Assembly: GCA_009914755.4 (NCBI GenBank)
Contig: CP068257.2
Location: 22,656,001 to 22,720,000 of the forward strand
DNA from: the human T2T-CHM13v2.0 reference genome, Homo sapiens
Reading direction: 5' to 3'
DNA length: 64,000 bases
A program made the translations under genes and the position numbers. Under the pieces are notes generated by a model. The model saw nothing but the letters and a program-made list of their open reading frames with translations, did no database searches and had not been told where the DNA came from. This document shows, in pieces, positions 27,851 through 62,600 of the stretch. Numbering within the stretch: the first letter of the stretch is position 1; each line of letters starts with the position of its first letter.

Positions 27851-29639
27851 TAATGTAGAAATCATAGTGTATGACATATAGCCTAGGTGTGTAATAGGCT
27901 ATGTCATCGAGATTTGTGTAAGTATACTCTTTGATGTTTGCACAATGATGAAATCACCTAACCATGCGTTTATCAGAACTCATCCCTGACCCTAAGTGAC
28001 GCATGACTGTATTATGAAGAACAAAATTAAATTTGAATTTTCAAAATTAGTTGGAAAGATCAGGGATGATATATTGAAAAGTATTGAAAATTAAATTTAC
28101 AGCTCAGAATTTTAATGCCTTGTTAATATTTTTGAAGGTCTGCTTCAAAAAATCAAAAAATATTTCAAAAAAATTATATATTCATAAGATTAATATGTTT
28201 CTATAACTGCAGGACAGCATTCTTGTTTCTTTATTAAAGGAAAATTATTTTAAATTATTACTAACATGGACACATTCTATGTAAGTTGAATGTACAGTAA
28301 TTTTATACAGTTAAATGTATTTTGCTATCCAGATAGATAATTTCATAACTTGGTATTTTATTTCCTATATTGTATAGATTAATTATATAGTATACATAAT
28401 TTTTTTTGCTTTAACCCTGCAATAATTGAGCAACTCATAATAAAAGAAATTGTGAATTATTTGATGTAGAATTTTACAAGAAATATCTAAAAACGTTGGG
28501 TATTAATGTTATTAATTATAAACTGATAAATTATGTTTTATATATAGATATTAGAGATAACAAATTACAACTTTTAGACACTCTAAATAATACTGGGGAA
28601 AATATACCATTAAAGTAAGAAAATACTGAATTTCATTCCAATTAGGATCATGTACTACCTTTTGGCATTTTCCACTGTACCCTAATGTCAAGAGACCTAA
28701 TATTTCAAGGATGTATTCAACAAATATACTGTTGCTATAATATTATTTAGCAGAGATTTCTTAGATTGCTATGTGGATTAGAAAATTTAATGTATATTTT
28801 AAAACACCTGTGTGTCACATGTAAGAAGACCTCCATTTATTTTAGCTCATAGAGATAACTATATACATTATATATGCATTATAGATCACACATATGCCAT
28901 ACACACATGCACACACACATACACACACACTCTAACAAAGCCTAAAACATGTAGCAAAATTTATAAATATGTTGGACTAAAATGTCTATATGTCATTGCA
29001 ATTAAGGAATTGAGACAGTCTTCTACTTTTTCTTAGGAAAAAGAAAAGATATTTATTAGGAATTATGCATATCATGATTTTGTTGATTATTAGTCAGGAT
29101 AAATGAAGGGATTAAACAAATTCATTTTATTTTCATGTTTTGCAGAATGTTTATGTTGGTGAATTAGTGGATGAAATAGACCTCTATTCAGCAAATAATC
29201 TTATGTATCTTCTATTTTTAAAAATTATTTATCATTTTTGTTGATACATAATTGTGCATATTTATGGGGAACATACAATATTTTGATGCATACATATGAT
29301 GTGTAATGATCAAATCAGACTGTTTGGAATATCCATTACCTCAAACATTTATCATTTTTTTTGCGTTGAGAACAGCTAGATTCTTCTAGCTATTTTGAAA
29401 AATACAATAAATAATTGTTAACTATGGTCACGCTACTGTGCTATCAGACACTAGAACTTATTCTATCTGTTTAACTGCATGTTTGTGCCCATTATCCAAA
29501 CTTTTTTATCCTGCCCCCCACCCTCTTTCCCCCACTGTGGTAACTATCATTCTACCTTTTACCTCTGAGATCAACGTTTATAGCTCTCAATATGAGTCAG
29601 AACATGTAATGTTTGTCTTTTCTGTGCCTGCCTTTTTTC

Positions 29640-39484: not shown

Positions 39485-39863
39485 GTGTCTTGATTCTGTC
39501 TAGTTTTTTCAGCCTTCTATAAAAAATACCAAAAACTGAGAAGGTTATAAACAAAAGAAATTTCCTTCTCATAGTTCTGAAGTCTGGGAAGTTCATGAAC
39601 AAGTTGCTGGCAGATTCAATGCCTGGTGAGGGCCTGCTTTCTCGTTCACTGATGGTCATCTTCACCTTGCGTTCTCACATGATGGACAGGGCTAGCTAGC
39701 TCTCTGGGGCCTCTTTTATGTGGGCACTACTACCATTCATGAGAGCTCTGCCCTCACAATCTAATCATCTCTCAAATGCCATCATCTCCTAATGTTATCA
39801 CCTTGGGAATTAATATTTTAGCAGATGAATTTTGGGAGAACACATATATTCAGACAATAACAT
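39485..39863 (-). mobile_element. ERVL-MaLR solo LTR (MLT1-like), antisense orientation
   Basis: tgtcttgattctgtctagttttttcagccttctataaaaaataccaaaaactgagaaggttataaacaaaagaaatttccttctcatagttctgaagtctgggaagttcatgaacaag ... ggtgagggcctgctttctcgttcactgatggtcatcttcaccttgcgttctcacatgatgg ... ctctctggggcctcttttatgtgggcactactaccattcatgagagctctgccctcacaatctaatcatctctcaaatgccatcatctcctaatgttatcaccttggg ... acacatatattcagacaataaca. Confidence 0.65.
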
Positions 39864-53161: not shown

Positions 53162-53513
53162 CTGTATTAGTCTGTTCTCACACTGCTATGAAGAAATACC
53201 AGAGACTGGTTAATTTATAAAAGAAAGAGGGTTAGTTGGCTCACAATTTTGTTTGGCTGGGGTGGCCTCAGGAAACATAATCATGGTGGAAGACAAAGGA
53301 TAAGCAGGCACCTTCTTCACAGGGCGGCAGGACGGAGTGAGTGCAACCAGGGGAAATTCCAGAGAACCATCAGAATTCATAAGACTCACGCATTATCATG
53401 AGAACAACATAGAGGAAACTGCCCCTGTGATTCGATTACCTCCACTTGGTCCCGCCATGACACGTGGAGATTATGGGGATTACATTTCAAGAGGAGATTT
53501 TAGTGGGAACAAA
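53162..53513 (-). mobile_element. THE1/MST-family MaLR solo LTR, antisense orientation
   Basis: tgtattagtctgttctcacactgctatgaagaaataccagagactggttaatttataaaagaaagagggttagttggctcacaattttgtttggctggggtggcctcaggaaacataatcatggtggaagacaaaggataagcaggcaccttcttcacagggcggcaggacggagtgagtgcaaccaggggaaattccagagaaccatcagaattcataagactcacgcattatcatgagaacaacatagaggaaactgcccctgtgattcgattacctccacttggtcccgccatgacacgtggagattatggggattacatttcaagaggagattttagtgggaac. This is the reverse complement of the THE1 sense LTR TGATATGG...TAATACA. Confidence 0.7.
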
Positions 53514-54384
53514 TGATATGGATTGGGGAGCGAATTCACATCAGTTACTAATAGATGCAAAGTGATCCAATATTACAACCTCAATAAAGTAGGTTTAAAA
53601 TTTTTTAATCCTTATAATAAAATTATTAAAAAAGAATTCTGGAGAATTCTTGATGGAAATCATCAATATTCCTAGAGAAAAATTCTACAAACTTCAGATG
53701 AATCTGAATGGTCATCCTTAAAGGTCATCCATCTTTCTGTTTGTTTTCATCTAAAAGACATCATACTTTCAATACTGCAAAACTACTTGTTTAAGTAGCT
53801 TTATTTTGGATAAGTATTCACTTCATATATTTTATGAATTTGTGACAAAGCTAATCTAATAAAATATGGGTATTTGTTTTTGTATCTTTGAAAATTTCAC
53901 TCATTGTCTTCTTGGTCTGACCACTGGGGCAAATAATATTTTCAATATAAAACATAAATAAATATAAATACATATTTATATTGTAGATAGTATACAACAT
54001 GACTATTTTATTACATAGAAAATATATATTTATATTGTATTGCCAATATATATTTAACATATATAAAATATAAAATATACAATAAACAACATACAGTAAG
54101 TTCCCACATATTGTTGTAGAGAGGTTCTTGGAAACTGTGATGCTAAGCAAAATGACATAAAAGGAAACCCATTTTACCATAGGTTAATTGATATAAATAA
54201 GAGTTGAGTTCCTATAACATATTTCTGGTCACAAAAACATCACCAAACTTCTAAATGAAAACCAAAACATTTTAATATTTAATATTTATTGCAATATTAA
54301 ACATTGAGATAAATGTAAGCTATACATACATTTAAGAAAGATTAATAAAAACAAGATCACTACTTAGCCAATGATTCCAGTTCA

Positions 54385-54620
54385 GTGTCATGTGTGGCAG
54401 GAACCTACCTCAGCAGCTCAGTGCCAAGGCTGGAATCAACCTTGGACAGGATGGCATTCCCTCTCGGCATGCACTCAAACACACACCCACACTCACTCAG
54501 ATGGGACCAAAGAGACACACCAGTTCACTCATGTGCACATCTTTGGAACGTGGGAGGAAACTGGAGTACCCAGAGAATATCCACATAGACATGGGGAGAA
54601 CATGTGAACTCCACACAAAG
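54385..54620 (-). mobile_element. Ancient Deu-domain SINE remnant (AmnSINE1 / 5S-Deu-L2-like core), minus orientation
   Basis: The plus strand reads ctttggaacgtgggaggaaactggagtacccagagaatatccacatagacatggggagaacatgtgaactccacac (54541-54616). Its reverse complement is gtgtggagttcacatgttctccccatgtctatgtggatattctctgggtactccagtttcctcccacgttccaaag, which closely matches the Deu-domain consensus as I recall it: gtggagtttgcatgttctccccgtgtctgcgtgggtttcctccgggtactccggtttcctcccacagtccaaag. The block forms a local GC-rich island in AT-rich surroundings and generates three overlapping plus-frame ORFs (54371-54653). Confidence 0.5.
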
Positions 54621-55315
54621 ACTAGGGAATTGTTTTTTTTCTCATCAACATGATAACAAAGTGACATCGAATGAAATGAAGTTATTCAATGACATACTGT
54701 GTATAAATAAAGTGATCTATGTGGTGCTTAATGAGTTAATTTTAAAATTATTTTATTGAAGTTACAATAATTTATGTAAAAGGGTGGGGAAAATAACAAT
54801 TTAATCCCTCAAATTTGACATTACTCTTGGATTTGTTTTTTATGTGTAACACTTTCTCCCATCTACTCCATTCAGATCACTTCCAACTCAGATGATTGAA
54901 TTTAAAAAAATAAGCCTTAACTTTCCAGAGGCACTTATTGAATATCTGCTCTTTATTCATGTATACTTGGCTCACAGAACATTGCCTATTACATGGCAGG
55001 TGCTCAATGTATATTTGTTGAATAGATTGAATGAAATAAGTTTCTTGTATGCTGAAGAGTCTTATCAAAGATACTTGAGGTCTTTCATCTAAGGTGGAGT
55101 AGTTGAATTCTCAGGTAGATATTGCATAGTAATTGGAAACGTGACACATAAAATGGAGTAACTGAACTGAAACTAAAATATGTCTTATCAGGGCAATTCC
55201 GTGAGACTTTGAAAGCATTTTTAAGGCTGCAGTTTTGGTGAAAATATACATAAAGATAAATCAAAAGGAAAGCTACCTTGGACAGTATTTTTAAGGCATT
55301 AAAAGTCAGTTTGTG

Positions 55316-59623: not shown

Positions 59624-62600
59624 GATTTTAAGACCCCTACTAACCTTTAAACCACAATAAAATATTTTATCAAAATGTTAAAAGTATTTGCTTTTTAGAA
59701 ATAGAGTTGAATTTCATTATTTATAGTATTAATGTAGTATTAGAGATGGGAGCATTAATAAATAATAACAGTAGTAGTAATATTATGTATGATGTATTAA
59801 GTGTTCATTCTGGCCAAAAAATGTGCTAAATTCTGCATTTATTATTACTTTACATCTAATCACAATGCTAGGTGACAATTATTAAGATGAAAACCAATAT
59901 ATATTTAAAGACATGGATGTACAATGACCACTAAGGAGACAGGTTTAACCAGAGAGAGATTCTGCATTGAGTAGAAATATGAGGCTTTGGATGGGCATGA
60001 ATTTCAGAATATGCTTGAGATTCAAAAGGCCAGTTGACTGACTAAAGTCTTATAGATAACTTTTAATGGGAGACTTACTATTGGAATTTTGACCTGTTAT
60101 TAACTATTGACATTTCCAAAATTTCTGATAGTGAAATGGCTATTTTTGGTTTGAAGCCTGTCATTACAACTTATTGTTCACTAATCTGACTCTGGAACTT
60201 ATTTTAAGCCCCCTTGTCTCAGTTTTATCATCTGTAACATTTTCCTAATAATAATATATTGCTCATGGGATAATTTTAAGAATAAAATCAGTGAAGATTT
60301 TTTGTATATGAATTTATTTGCAATTGTGTCTCATAGAATCCCTCAGAATATTAACCACTTACTGTTCCAAGACTAAAGGATCCAAAGTAAAAATTGCTTT
60401 AATTAAGTCCATGGCTAATCAATATGCAGGATTATTCAGCAGTTATTTGCCCATAATGGTCAAATAACTGCACTTGTTTATATAGATTTCTTAGAGCTTA
60501 TTGTACACATTCTTGAAAGTAGTAGGAATAGAAATACAATCAATTCATTTGAATTTTCAGTTTTGGTGGTAAATTGAAGTGACATGCAAGTAAAAATAAC
60601 AAACAATGTAAGTAGAATTTTTTATCCACTCTTCTAACTAGATGTAGATTCATTATTTCGGCGGCAAATATATTACCCAGGAAAGGTGATGCTACAAAAA
60701 AGCAGTTGTTACTCTTGTCAAATTATCAGTTATTGATGTGCGAACTAAAATACCCAAAAGAAAGAGGATGAGAAGCATATGGTTTAACCTCAGGCAACAG
60801 ACCTGTATGACTTGCTGTGAATTTTTACCACTTTATTCCAGATAATTCCCCCAAATGATACATATGATATTTCACATGAGTAAGGGAAACGGCAGTGTTA
60901 GGAGAGGGTGATAGCTGCTTTGTCTTCCTTATACAGCTTTTTCCATTTAGCATTTATTCTGTATTAAGACAGGTGCAACTTTTATGGAAAGAAATTACAG
61001 GCTCTTTTCAGAATCCCCCAAAATAAAATGGCACATTTTTCCCTCAGAGTAAAGAGTTCTCCAGCAATTGTCTCATTAATTTAACCAAAAATCGGTCTAC
61101 CATTCTAGGTAGTCAGGGTACTAAATTAAAAATATAAGGTATTCAATAACATTTAAATGGTAGTTATACATCTTCTAATCATATATGGCTTTTCTATGAC
61201 AAGAAAATTATATAATTTTAATTTTCAGTGTTTCAGTAGATCGACGGTACTTTTGAAGTTTCAGTTGAGGATAAAATCACACAACATCTACATGAGGATT
61301 TGGGATTGGAGCATAATTTTTTGCTGAGTATGTGCAGAGTTCCCAGGAAGGGAAATGCCTAAGATATAAGTAAAATTCAAATTTAATATGCCTTTCATAA
61401 AAGGTGATTGGGACAAGCTGTTAAATAATAGATTTGCAACTCTTTCACTTCAACTCAACAAATATTAAGTTTGAGTTTCAAACTTGGCTAATTAGGTGAG
61501 TCTTTTGGGAAGGGAAAATGGGATTACTCATCGGGGACCTCTGCTTGGGAAGGGAGGCCAACCGGTTCTGAACTTTACTCTGTTTTATGAACATTATTGA
61601 AATGTAAGTTCACAGTTTCAACCTTAATTATATCCAGAGGGTCCAGAACCACATTTTTTTCAAGTTCTTTTATCTTGAGCAACCAGTACTGTTTGATTTT
61701 TTGCAGTTGCCAACTCTCTCCTGCGGATGGCTCAGATGCAATGTATGTGATAAATCAATACAGAATAGGTTACCTTTTCTCAAAGAATTTGCCATTGAAT
61801 TGTGAAACTAAAACTATGAGAAAGTAAATAAAAATGTAAATGCAAAGTACAATATGAATCTGTATTAAGTGGTATTGTATAGCACAGAGGGAGAATAGGT
61901 CAAGGCTAATGAGGAATGATTTCTTCGAAGGAGGAGGTGGGTGAAAACTGGGCGAGCATTCCAGATAGATACATCATGGACAGCTGGCAATATGTCAATC
62001 ACCAGAGCCTTTTGGTACTCATTTTTTCAAATAATCCTGCATCCCAGTTTTACTATTCAAATAATTGATGTCAAAGTGTTATGTCATTTCATTAAAACTC
62101 ATTTTATTAATTATTTAATTGATTAATCTCTCCTTTGCATTGTATTAAAAATAGCACACATTTAATAAAATACATTTAAACTAATGCATATTTTATAAAA
62201 TTTTTATTTTTTATAGATTTTATTATGAAAACATTGAATATAAATTTTGGTTTATATGTTACAATATTGAATATCTAAGCATGATGTAATTTACTACATG
62301 TTTTAGTTATTTCATTTGTATCATACATGCCTTTTGGTCATGTTGTACATAATACAAAAATGTTTACCCTATATATTTTTAGGCTAAAGTAACAAACAAT
62401 ATCATTTGCAATGTGTGTTACTAGAAACAACATTAATTTTGCTTCTAGATGTAGAATATTTAAATTAATATTAATGTTATAAAATCTTATGTCTGAAATG
62501 TGGATTGAGATAGGATCTGGATTTTAAATATGAAAAAAATGGGAGGAGATAATTTTAATGACAGTCAGATTTGTGATAGAAAGAACATCATTAATAGTTA

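What the first reader, a model, noticed from the sequence alone, without database searches (positions are those of the whole stretch)
54385..54620. Ancient Deu-domain SINE core (AmnSINE1-like) forming a GC-rich island, a candidate exapted conserved non-coding element
The 54541-54616 stretch is a near-consensus reverse complement of the Deu domain, the central domain shared by AmnSINE1, SINE3 and other Deu-domain SINEs. It is far better preserved than expected for an insertion older than the amniote radiation sitting in fast-decaying AT-rich DNA. Many surviving mammalian AmnSINE1 copies are under purifying selection, and some act as distal enhancers. Its GC content and high sequence complexity make it stand out from everything within about 10 kb on either side. 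It also explains the three overlapping ORFs at 54371-54653, which are not coding.
Basis: partly seen in the sequence, partly recalled or inferred. Interest (0 to 1): 0.6.

Follow-up and report, generated by a model that had tools for sequence, protein, structure and literature searches.

The report
SINE relic carried inside DNA transposon
The GC-rich patch really is a piece of an ancient Deu-type SINE, but it sits inside a complete 606-base copy of a cut-and-paste transposon family and has decayed no less than its sister copies, so it looks like an ordinary repeat, not a shown conserved enhancer.

Summary
The Deu domain is real. A profile built from 11 independent fish tRNA-Deu SINE copies hits the window once, at 54619->54365 on the minus strand (E=3e-32). 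The window is primate, almost certainly human: it holds Alus and L1 ORF2 fragments, and the same locus turns up at 99% in a metagenome contig.

The Deu domain is only the middle of a larger unit. At least five independent paralogous copies, mostly human DNA found as metagenome contamination, align with the window over 54094-54699 and end sharply at the same points. A family profile built without the window matches it end to end (model positions 2-610 of 610, E=4e-132).

The unit starts CAGYARGTCCTC and ends with the inverted counterpart. It is flanked by TA far more often than chance (P~2e-5). It has no Pol III head and no 3' repeat tail, and one end resembles a Tigger7/MER44-type terminus. 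I read it as a non-autonomous Tigger/pogo-like DNA transposon carrying a promoter-less Deu-SINE fragment.

The window copy is an average member: K2P distance to a leave-one-out consensus is 0.205, against 0.18-0.28 for the other five copies. Its AT-rich part is as well kept as its GC-rich part. The "too well preserved, therefore selected" argument therefore fails. Cross-species conservation could not be tested. This is an ordinary repeat of low interest.

The parts
54094..54699 (-). Full-length copy (606 nt) of a ~610-nt interspersed repeat family: terminal inverted repeats, with an internal Deu-SINE-derived segment
   Evidence: A family HMM built from 8 other copies (window excluded) matches 54698->54094, model positions 2-610 of 610, 434 bits, E=4e-132. 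Homology to L123, L124, L125, L134 and L126-128 starts at 54088-54093. It ends at 54705-54708 for L123 and L126-132; the alignments to L124, L125 and L134 stop short of the right end.
54092..54093 (.). TA dinucleotide next to the left terminus (putative target-site duplication)
   Evidence: Read directly from the sequence. Exact TA occurs at 7 of 12 junctions across copies, against an 8.6% background, P~2e-5.
54700..54701 (.). TG next to the right terminus (putative TA duplication with one substitution)
54094..54117 (+). Terminus of the unit, CAGTAAGTTCCCAC... (family consensus CAGTAAGTCCTCACTTAAYGTYGT), Tigger-like
   Evidence: The family consensus end aligns from position 0 with a from-memory Tigger7/MER44 inverted repeat: score 35 against shuffles 16.9+-2.5. 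That remembered sequence is a real repeat end in this window (28009-27913, 82.5%).
54676..54699 (-). Opposite terminus, CAGTATGTCATTGAATAAC... (family consensus CAGCAGGTCCTCGAATAACRTCRT)
   Evidence: The terminal 12 nt of the two consensus ends match 10/12 in inverted orientation, and 19/24 after restoring CpGs that the Y/R column mixtures indicate.
54620..54675 (-). Subterminal region between the terminus and the Deu segment. The A-run and the remnant of the SINE box B lie at its inner edge.
   Evidence: Shared with L076, L123, L126, L131 and L135 but not with fish SINE heads. No 5S or tRNA signal.
54365..54619 (-). Deu domain (the SINE-derived passenger segment), lacking box A and most of the head
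   Evidence: Fish-copy HMM positions 104-371 of 401, E=3e-32. In L123 the same HMM starts at position 80, inside box B.
54541..54619 (-).
   Evidence: 82% identical to the fish consensus, 87% to the leave-one-out family consensus. 14 differences, of which 12 are transitions and 4 are CpG-type.
54094..54364 (-). AT-rich 3' part of the unit (not SINE-derived), with an 18-nt AT-rich insertion specific to this copy near 54270-54290
   Evidence: 86% identical to the leave-one-out consensus, K2P 0.152. The insertion is visible.
54371..54653 (+). Three overlapping spurious ORFs on the antisense strand of the Deu segment
   Evidence: The protein search with the 87-aa ORF found nothing. The profile search found only translated repeat copies.

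Best explanation
Window 54094-54699 (minus strand) is a complete 606-nt copy of a non-autonomous Tc1/mariner-type (Tigger/pogo-like) DNA transposon family. The middle ~300 nt of that family derive from a 5'-truncated, promoter-less DeuSINE of the amniote type.

Inferred history:
1. A Deu SINE, which ends in a (GAAT)n tail that is still visible in one subfamily, retroposed into or was captured by a Tigger-like miniature element.
2. The composite was then amplified by a transposase acting on its CAG...CTG inverted termini and inserting at TA sites.
3. This copy landed here roughly 60-90 million years ago and has decayed neutrally since.

The 51% GC 'island' and the stop-free antisense strand are simply the composition of the passenger Deu segment. 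The element has no Pol III promoter, no coding capacity and no demonstrated present function.

Shown here: the Deu homology, the unit's extent and shared ends, the inverted termini, the TA flanks, and the average divergence. Inferred: the order of events, the transposase partner, the age and the neutrality.
For: - Deu homology: E=3e-32, minus strand.
- Six independent loci with unrelated flanks share the unit, and the homology breaks off sharply at its ends.
- An HMM built without the window matches it end to end, E=4e-132.
- The termini CAGCAGGTCCTC and CAGTAAGTCCTC match 10/12 in inverted orientation, and 19/24 after CpG restoration.
- Exact TA at 7 of 12 junctions, P~2e-5, and no longer duplications.
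- The unit's 3' end carries no poly(A) or microsatellite, whereas an internal (GAAT)n follows the Deu part in L126, L131 and L133.
- No 5S or tRNA head in the window or in 9 other copies.
- One terminus resembles a Tigger7/MER44-type end, z about 7. A genuine copy of that end is in the window, also preceded by TA.
- Divergence is star-like and the window is mid-range: K2P 0.205 all sites, 0.169 without CpG-like columns, 0.152 in the AT-rich part. The other copies give 0.18-0.28, 0.13-0.21 and 0.12-0.22.
- This is much less than the ~30% divergence of the two MIR fragments in the window and similar to the in-window MER44-like end (17.5%).
Against: - Only 6 full-length and 3 partial copies were available. 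They were found through similarity of the Deu core, so the core figures are biased.
- Beyond the first 12-24 nt the two ends show no significant inverted similarity.
- Similarity to Tigger7 is modest, about 60-65% over 42-55 nt, and only z=2.6 against the decayed in-window copy. It rests partly on a consensus recalled from memory.
- No autonomous partner, no Deu-less version of the element and no empty site were seen.
- The published AmnSINE1 consensus is 570 bp (PMC3234267), close to this unit's length, and I could not compare the two.
- The hosts of L124, L125, L134 and L076 are unknown.
- Neutrality is inferred from paralogues, not from orthologues.
Confidence: 0.7

Rival explanations
1. 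The whole ~610-nt unit is a LINE-mobilised Deu SINE (AmnSINE1, AmnSINE2 or an LF-SINE-like family). On this reading the AT-rich 235 nt are its LINE-derived 3' tail, the shared 5' end is its transcription start, and the inverted termini and TA flanks are coincidences.
For: DeuSINEs do carry LINE-derived tails, and human AmnSINE1 is described as a 570-bp composite of head, Deu domain and 3' tail (PMC3234267), close to 610 nt. The first ~10 nt (GCAGCAGGTCC) loosely resemble the GGCAGCACGGTGG start of the fish tRNA-like heads. Sharp 5' and 3' ends are also expected for full-length retroposons.
Against: No box A/B, tRNA or 5S signal appears at the 5' end in any of 10 copies. The 5S alignment scores below the shuffles. 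The unit's 3' end has no repeat tail, while a SINE-type (GAAT)n lies internally in one subfamily. TA flanks have P~2e-5. The inverted termini are anchored exactly at both ends. One end is Tigger-like. Divergence of about 0.15-0.2 is half that of the MIR copies in the same window, which is hard to square with an amniote-age retroposon decaying neutrally.
Confidence: 0.2
2. Whatever its origin, this copy has been exapted. On this reading it is a conserved non-coding element acting as a distal enhancer, as shown for AmnSINE1 loci AS021 (Satb2), AS071 (Fgf8) and AS3_9 (Wnt5a).
For: A sizeable share of human AmnSINE1-annotated loci overlap conserved elements: about 14% in PMC3234267, and 626 loci in PMC5065162. 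Conserved AmnSINE1 copies lie preferentially in gene-poor regions (PMC12015672). This window is AT-rich with no evident gene; a few of its long ORFs were checked and are L1 ORF2 fragments or have no Pfam match. The Deu core is the best-kept stretch of the copy at 87%.
Against: The copy is no better kept than five paralogues, and its non-SINE AT-rich part is kept equally well. It carries copy-specific indels of 18 and 10 nt. All 12 CpGs have decayed. The POU-type TTTGCAT in the Deu core, present in the family and fish consensus, reads TTCACAT here. Conservation and chromatin state were not testable.
Confidence: 0.1
3. One of the overlapping ORFs (67-87 aa) encodes a small protein.
For: Three open frames overlap, and 54373-54587 is the longest stop-free stretch in the window.
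Against: All three frames are open at once, which is a composition effect: only 18% T on this strand. The ORFs have no Pfam domains and the 87-aa ORF has no homologue. The only protein hits, found with a different frame, are ORFs called on paralogous repeat copies in contaminating host DNA, and they align as DNA repeats with frame-breaking indels.
Confidence: 0.01

Closest known systems
AmnSINE1 (human Repbase AmnSINE1_HS; SINE3/5S with Deu domain; Nishihara et al. 2006, as described in PMC3234267, PMC3427154, PMC4824008 and PMC5753468)
   Same: It shares the Deu domain, occurs in an amniote (primate) genome, is an old and immobile relic, and the internal segment would very probably be labelled AmnSINE1-like by RepeatMasker.
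   Different: This unit has no 5S-derived head and no tRNA-derived promoter in any copy examined. The Deu part is flanked by about 70 nt and about 235 nt that are shared between copies and end in inverted CAG...CTG termini with TA flanks. Divergence suggests amplification tens of millions of years ago rather than hundreds. The consensus itself could not be compared.
Teleost tRNA-Deu SINEs (the SINE3 / OS-SINE1-type DeuSINE superfamily), sampled here as fish host DNA in metagenome contigs L001-L120
   Same: Homologous over about 255 nt (E=3e-32) in the same order of sub-blocks, with the core TGTGGAGTTTGCATGTTCTCCCC...CCTCCCAC...CCAAAGA.
   Different: The fish copies have box A/B tRNA-like heads and end in (TGAA)n. 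The window segment starts inside box B. Its mid-region is only 49% identical to the fish consensus but 80% identical to the amniote-type copy L076.
Tigger7/MER44 and MER8-type non-autonomous pogo/Tigger DNA transposons (Mariner/Tc1 superfamily; PMC5753468)
   Same: They share TA target duplication and termini starting CAGT..GTC.TC.CTTAACG. The CGTCG-containing subterminal motifs and the age are comparable: an in-window MER44-like end is 82.5% identical to its consensus.
   Different: Identity to the Tigger7 end is only about 60-65%, so this is not a MER44 member. The internal region is SINE-derived. The family name, if it is curated, is unknown to me. No transposase partner was identified.
Exapted AmnSINE1 enhancers AS021, AS071 and AS3_9
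   Same: Each has a Deu-domain-derived sequence in a gene-poor region. AS3_9 also combines an AmnSINE1 piece with a Mariner/Tc1-type element (X6b_DNA).
   Different: Those loci are defined by mammal-wide conservation and transgenic assays. Here neither is available, and the paralogue comparison gives no sign of constraint. In AS3_9 the transposable elements inserted side by side at one locus, whereas here the combination itself is the repeated unit.

Membership tests
DeuSINE superfamily (sequence derivation) | Central Deu domain homologous to that of other DeuSINEs | tested here: met
   An HMM of 11 fish tRNA-Deu SINE copies hits 54619->54365 (-), E=3e-32, the only hit in 64 kb.
DeuSINE superfamily (as a mobile SINE) | Pol III promoter head (tRNA- or 5S-derived) at the 5' end | tested here: not met
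   No Rfam or ARAGORN hit and no box A/B motif in the window. None in the 9 related copies either. The Deu segment starts inside box B.
DeuSINE superfamily (as a mobile SINE) | LINE-type 3' end (short tandem repeat or poly(A)) at the end of the repeated unit | tested here: not met
   The unit ends ...GAGGACTTACTG|TA with no repeat tail in 6 copies. A (GAAT)n lies internally, directly after the Deu part, in L126, L131 and L133.
AmnSINE1 | 5S rRNA-derived promoter region | tested here: not met
   No 5S_rRNA match at E<=10 in the window or L076 and at E<=1 in the other loci scanned. Local alignment of the family consensus head to 5S rRNA scores 12, against a shuffle mean of 15. Absence could reflect truncation, but several copies begin at the same point.
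AmnSINE1 | Match to the curated 570-bp consensus / Dfam model over head, Deu domain and 3' tail | not testable with these tools
   No Dfam or Repbase library was available. The consensus is not printed in any accessible paper text.
AmnSINE1 | Host is an amniote | tested here: met
   The window is primate: 11 Alu copies, L1 ORF2 fragments, and the same locus at 99% in metagenome contig L122.
Tc1/mariner (Tigger/pogo-like) non-autonomous DNA transposon | Terminal inverted repeats at the exact ends of the repeated unit | tested here: met
   10/12 at the termini, and 19/24 after CpG restoration supported by Y/R column mixtures. The chance of >=10/12 at a fixed register is about 1e-4 (my calculation). 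No significant inverted similarity further inside.
Tc1/mariner (Tigger/pogo-like) non-autonomous DNA transposon | TA target-site duplication | tested here: met
   Exact TA at 7 of 12 junctions, the rest one substitution away, against an 8.6% background, P~2e-5. The window copy has TA on the left and TG on the right.
Tc1/mariner (Tigger/pogo-like) non-autonomous DNA transposon | Termini related to those of a known autonomous Tigger / matching transposase partner | tested here: inconclusive
   One end aligns from position 0 with a remembered Tigger7/MER44 end at z about 7, but only z=2.6 against the decayed in-window copy. The other end does not align. No autonomous element was found.
Tc1/mariner (Tigger/pogo-like) non-autonomous DNA transposon | Precise empty sites (a single TA) at orthologous positions in species lacking the insertion | not testable with these tools
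   No vertebrate genome collection was available.
Exapted conserved non-coding element / enhancer | Cross-species conservation above the neutral background | not testable with these tools
   Only the same locus from the same species (L122, 99% to the window) was recovered, and no orthologue from another species. The indirect paralogue test shows no excess preservation.
Exapted conserved non-coding element / enhancer | Enhancer chromatin marks or reporter activity | not testable with these tools
   No epigenomic data were available.
Protein-coding gene | ORF with homologues or domains and a single preserved frame | tested here: not met

The most novel reading that the evidence does not exclude
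The ~610-nt unit may be an uncatalogued, or split-annotated, composite family: a eutherian-age Tigger-like miniature transposon that picked up an AmnSINE-type Deu domain and spread it by cut-and-paste. If so, part of what is annotated as 'AmnSINE1' in mammalian genomes would be DNA-transposon copies several-fold younger than the amniote-age SINE. That would bias the age, copy-number and 'fraction under selection' statistics for AmnSINE1, and it would be a clear vertebrate case of a SINE module spread by a transposase.
Probability: 0.15. Interest if true: 0.4.

Novelty: already known. Interest (0 to 1): 0.15.

Why it matters
It matters mainly as a caution. A recognisable Deu core in human DNA was taken as evidence of purifying selection because AmnSINE1 is assumed to be more than 300 million years old. 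Here the core is a passenger in a younger, TA-inserting, inverted-repeat element, and it has decayed exactly as much as its sister copies. Good preservation therefore says nothing about function.

If this composite family is not properly represented in repeat libraries, some AmnSINE1 age and conservation statistics would need correcting. Otherwise this is an ordinary, already catalogued kind of interspersed repeat in a gene-poor, L1- and Alu-rich region.

Tried and rejected
- Rfam (gathering and E-value modes) and ARAGORN on the window and related loci, looking for a 5S or tRNA head: nothing found.
- Protein search with the 87-aa ORF: no candidates.
- Scans of viral contigs with the Deu core and with an amniote-type pattern: no hits.
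- Scan of prokaryotic genomes with the amniote-type pattern: one hit, an invertebrate-type tRNA+partial-Deu SINE in a contaminated MAG contig, of no use for this locus.
- Full-text search for the element's own sequence in papers: none. Nishihara et al. 2006 is not held.
- First working idea: 54620-54686 is the 'tRNA-related region' of a 5'-truncated AmnSINE1, and the high window-to-L076 identity means constraint. I abandoned this once more copies showed a 610-nt unit with common ends and average divergence.
- L122 looked like a possible orthologue (73% protein identity), but it is the same locus at 99%, joined to 247 nt that do not match the window.
- Search for long target-site duplications or local repeats around the element: none.
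- Pfam on large ORFs elsewhere in the window: no hits. L1 identity was obtained from PDB sequences instead.
- Identifying the chromosomal locus or a neighbouring gene: not possible with these tools.

Full report
**What the window is.** The 64-kb window is 34.5% GC with a CpG observed/expected ratio of 0.19. It carries at least 11 Alu copies, 71-91% identical to an AluY consensus. It also holds L1 ORF2 fragments that match the solved human ORF2p (E=5e-72 and 3e-32). A low-coverage ENA metagenome contig (L122) is 99% identical to window 54476-54904. Sister copies of the element occur in human gut, bile and oral metagenomes. The window is therefore primate, almost certainly human, and lies in gene-poor, repeat-rich DNA with no evident gene.

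**Checking the observation.**
- I recognised the stretch as Deu-like from memory (75.5% over 139 nt), then replaced memory with data.
- A scan of metagenome contigs with a 20-nt Deu-core pattern returned 120 contigs, nearly all fish host DNA.
- In those contigs the core is preceded by tRNA-like heads. Box A-like motifs occur in 68 and box B-like motifs in 71 of the 106 copies with enough upstream sequence. This fixes the SINE sense strand.
- A profile HMM from 11 long fish copies hits the window exactly once, at 54619->54365 on the minus strand (105 bits, E=3e-32), covering model positions 104-371 of 401. That is the Deu domain without the head.
- The three overlapping + strand ORFs are real. 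54373-54587 is the longest stretch free of stop trinucleotides on either strand of the window (215 nt). This is a composition effect: only 18% T on that strand.
- The ORFs have no Pfam match, and the 87-aa ORF has no homologue.

**What was overstated.**
- The core 54541-54619 is 82% identical to the fish consensus. The 14 differences include 12 transitions, of which 4 are CpG-type. The whole domain is 60% identical, and none of the 12 consensus CpGs survives.
- GC is 51.3% for 54385-54620, in the top 2.1% of 236-nt windows. Three Alus within 10 kb are equally GC-rich.

**First reading, later abandoned.** One metagenome contig of unknown host (L076) is an amniote-type copy. It matches window 54490-54686 at 76% and shares many derived states against fish. 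In the mid-region the window is 80% identical to L076 but only 49% identical to fish. At that stage it looked like a 5'-truncated AmnSINE1 evolving 2-4 times slower than neutral.

**The turn.**
- A profile of the antisense-frame peptides of the window and L076 was searched against the protein collection. It found nine ORFs called on contaminating vertebrate DNA. I fetched their contigs.
- L123 (with an Alu and a MIR), L124, L125, L134 and L126-L128 align with the window well beyond the Deu domain. The alignments start at 54088-54093. For L123 and L126-L132 they end at 54705-54708. Flanks beyond these points are unrelated.
- L131/132, L133, L135 and L076 are partial or short-contig copies.
- The repeated unit therefore has a ~610-nt consensus.
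- An HMM built from the eight other copies, without the window, matches 54698->54094 over model positions 2-610 of 610 (434 bits, E=4e-132). The window carries a full-length copy at 54094-54699.

**Anatomy of the unit, in SINE sense (window minus strand).**
- It begins TA|CAGCAGGTCCTCGAATAAC..., followed by about 70 nt that end in an A-run.
- Next comes the SINE segment, starting inside box B (GATTCC...) and running through the Deu domain to GGAATAAGC.GGTTAGAAAATAAT. In copies L126, L131 and L133 this is followed by a (GAAT)n run and about 310 extra nt.
- Last come about 235 AT-rich nt ending ...GTTAAGTGAGGACTTACTG|TA.
- The two termini are inverted repeats: 10/12 as they stand. They reach 19/24 once CpGs are restored at columns where the copies show mixed TG/CA states.
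- An exact TA abuts 7 of 12 junctions, and the others are one substitution away. Against an 8.6% background this gives P~2e-5. In the window the flanks are TA (54092-54093) and TG (54700-54701).
- No longer target duplications are seen.
- The unit's 3' end has no poly(A) or microsatellite.
- No copy has 5S or tRNA similarity.
- One terminus aligns from position 0 with the Tigger7/MER44 inverted repeat as I remember it: score 35 against shuffles of 16.9+-2.5.
- That remembered sequence is validated by an 82.5% match over 97 nt at window 28009-27913, itself preceded by TA. Against this decayed real copy the similarity is weaker (z=2.6).

I conclude, with about 0.7 confidence, that the unit is a non-autonomous Tc1/mariner-type (Tigger/pogo-like) DNA transposon carrying a promoter-less Deu-SINE fragment as an internal passenger.

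**Preservation.**

| Measure | Window copy | Other full-length copies |
|---|---|---|
| Identity to leave-one-out consensus, whole unit | 81.7% | 77-84% |
| Identity, Deu domain | 81.7% | - |
| Identity, Deu core | 87.3% | - |
| Identity, AT-rich part | 86.2% | - |
| K2P, all sites | 0.205 | 0.18-0.28 |
| K2P, CpG-like columns removed | 0.169 | 0.13-0.21 |
| K2P, AT-rich part | 0.152 | 0.12-0.22 |

(Identities, K2P distances.)

- The window copy is mid-range.
- The AT-rich part played no role in how the copies were found, and it is kept as well as the GC-rich Deu part.
- The window copy also has an 18-nt insertion, a 10-nt deletion and smaller deletions relative to its relatives.
- For comparison, two MIR fragments in the window (60215-60295 and about 54951-55019) are about 30% diverged from a remembered MIR consensus. 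The MER44-like end is 17.5% diverged.
- At the customary 2.2e-9 substitutions per site per year (established usage, quoted from memory), K of 0.15-0.2 corresponds to roughly 60-90 million years.

So the Deu segment is 'too well preserved' only if one assumes an amniote-age insertion. As part of a younger transposon burst its state is what neutrality predicts.

**Function.**
- Published work shows that many AmnSINE1-annotated loci are conserved: about 14% in PMC3234267, and 626 loci overlapping phastCons elements in PMC5065162.
- A few of these are enhancers: AS021, AS071 and AS3_9.
- I could not obtain any orthologue of this locus from another species, so direct conservation is untested.
- Indirect signs point to neutrality. 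Divergence is average, the copy carries its own indels, and CpG loss is complete. The POU-type TTTGCAT of the Deu core is lost, reading TTCACAT here, while the family and fish consensus keep it.
- I put exaptation at about 0.1.

**Family naming.**
- Membership of the DeuSINE superfamily by sequence derivation is met.
- Membership of AmnSINE1 proper is not established. The 5S head is absent, and the curated consensus was unavailable for comparison.
- Repbase lists many human Mariner/Tc1 non-autonomous families (PMC5753468). I cannot say which, if any, this unit is.
- The human repeat catalogue is deep, so I assume the family is already known. The alternative, an uncatalogued or split-annotated composite, is recorded as the novel case (probability 0.15).

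**Limits.**
- Only six full-length paralogues were available, and some are of unknown host.
- Some comparisons (Alu, MIR, THE1, Tigger7, 5S) use consensus sequences recalled from memory. Each gave significant matches to real sequence in the window, except 5S, which gave none.
- The transposase partner, empty sites and orthologous conservation remain to be checked as described under next steps.

Noticed in passing
L121 (JBEVXT010000125.1, 'MAG: Sedimenticola sp.'), positions 2883-2999: A contig of a bacterial MAG that serves as a GTDB species representative carries a tRNA-like head plus a partial Deu (Nin-type) domain. The fish-SINE HMM scores E=3e-12, and the contig's CpG o/e is 0.78. It looks like invertebrate host DNA binned into the MAG.
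   Followed up: partly
L001-L120 (mostly MDSQ01/MDSP01 metagenome contigs): Nearly all contigs retrieved from the 'metagenome' collection with the Deu core are fish host DNA carrying several distinct tRNA-Deu SINE families: long-Deu, short-Deu, and variants with different tails.
   Followed up: partly
L076:301-508 versus L123:4092-4307: These two copies are 88% identical, against about 70% for other pairs, but only inside the unit. Their flanks do not align, and L076 lacks the 3' half of the unit. They may be orthologues from distant species (which would imply constraint at that other locus) or a later partial duplication. This is unresolved.
   Followed up: partly
L126 versus L131 (both from 'human gut metagenome' assemblies): The same locus, including flanks, is 96.6% identical over 827 nt. 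This is either two related primate genomes or a segmental duplication.
   Followed up: no
window 54593-54612 (minus strand core): The octamer-like TTTGCAT inside the Deu core is kept in the fish consensus, the family consensus and L076, but reads TTCACAT in the window copy. POU sites in the Deu domain were proposed as part of AmnSINE1 enhancer logic (PMC3234267).
   Followed up: partly
window 54951-55019 (+): A MIR-like 3' end fragment lies about 250 nt from the element, roughly 70% identical to a remembered MIR consensus (score 46.5 against shuffles of 23.7+-3.1). I used it only as a local yardstick of old neutral DNA.
   Followed up: partly
window 27913-28009 (-): This is the end of a MER44/Tigger7-like DNA transposon, 82.5% identical over 97 nt to a remembered inverted repeat and preceded by TA. 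Its full extent was not mapped.
   Followed up: partly
window 53163-53511 (-): The 48% GC block just upstream of the finding is a MaLR (THE1/MST-like) LTR, 74% identical to a remembered THE1 consensus. Weaker related pieces lie at 11909-11992, 9919-9976, 22886-22954 and 39506-39577.
   Followed up: partly
window 10710-11900: This region has several overlapping ORFs of 94-143 aa on both strands and no Pfam match. It lies next to a MaLR-like fragment and is probably LTR or ERV-derived. It was not examined.
   Followed up: no
L122:1-247: The first 247 nt of this 676-nt contig do not match the window, while the rest is 99% identical. The join falls in the CACAC-rich part of the Deu segment, which suggests a chimeric low-coverage assembly.
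   Followed up: no
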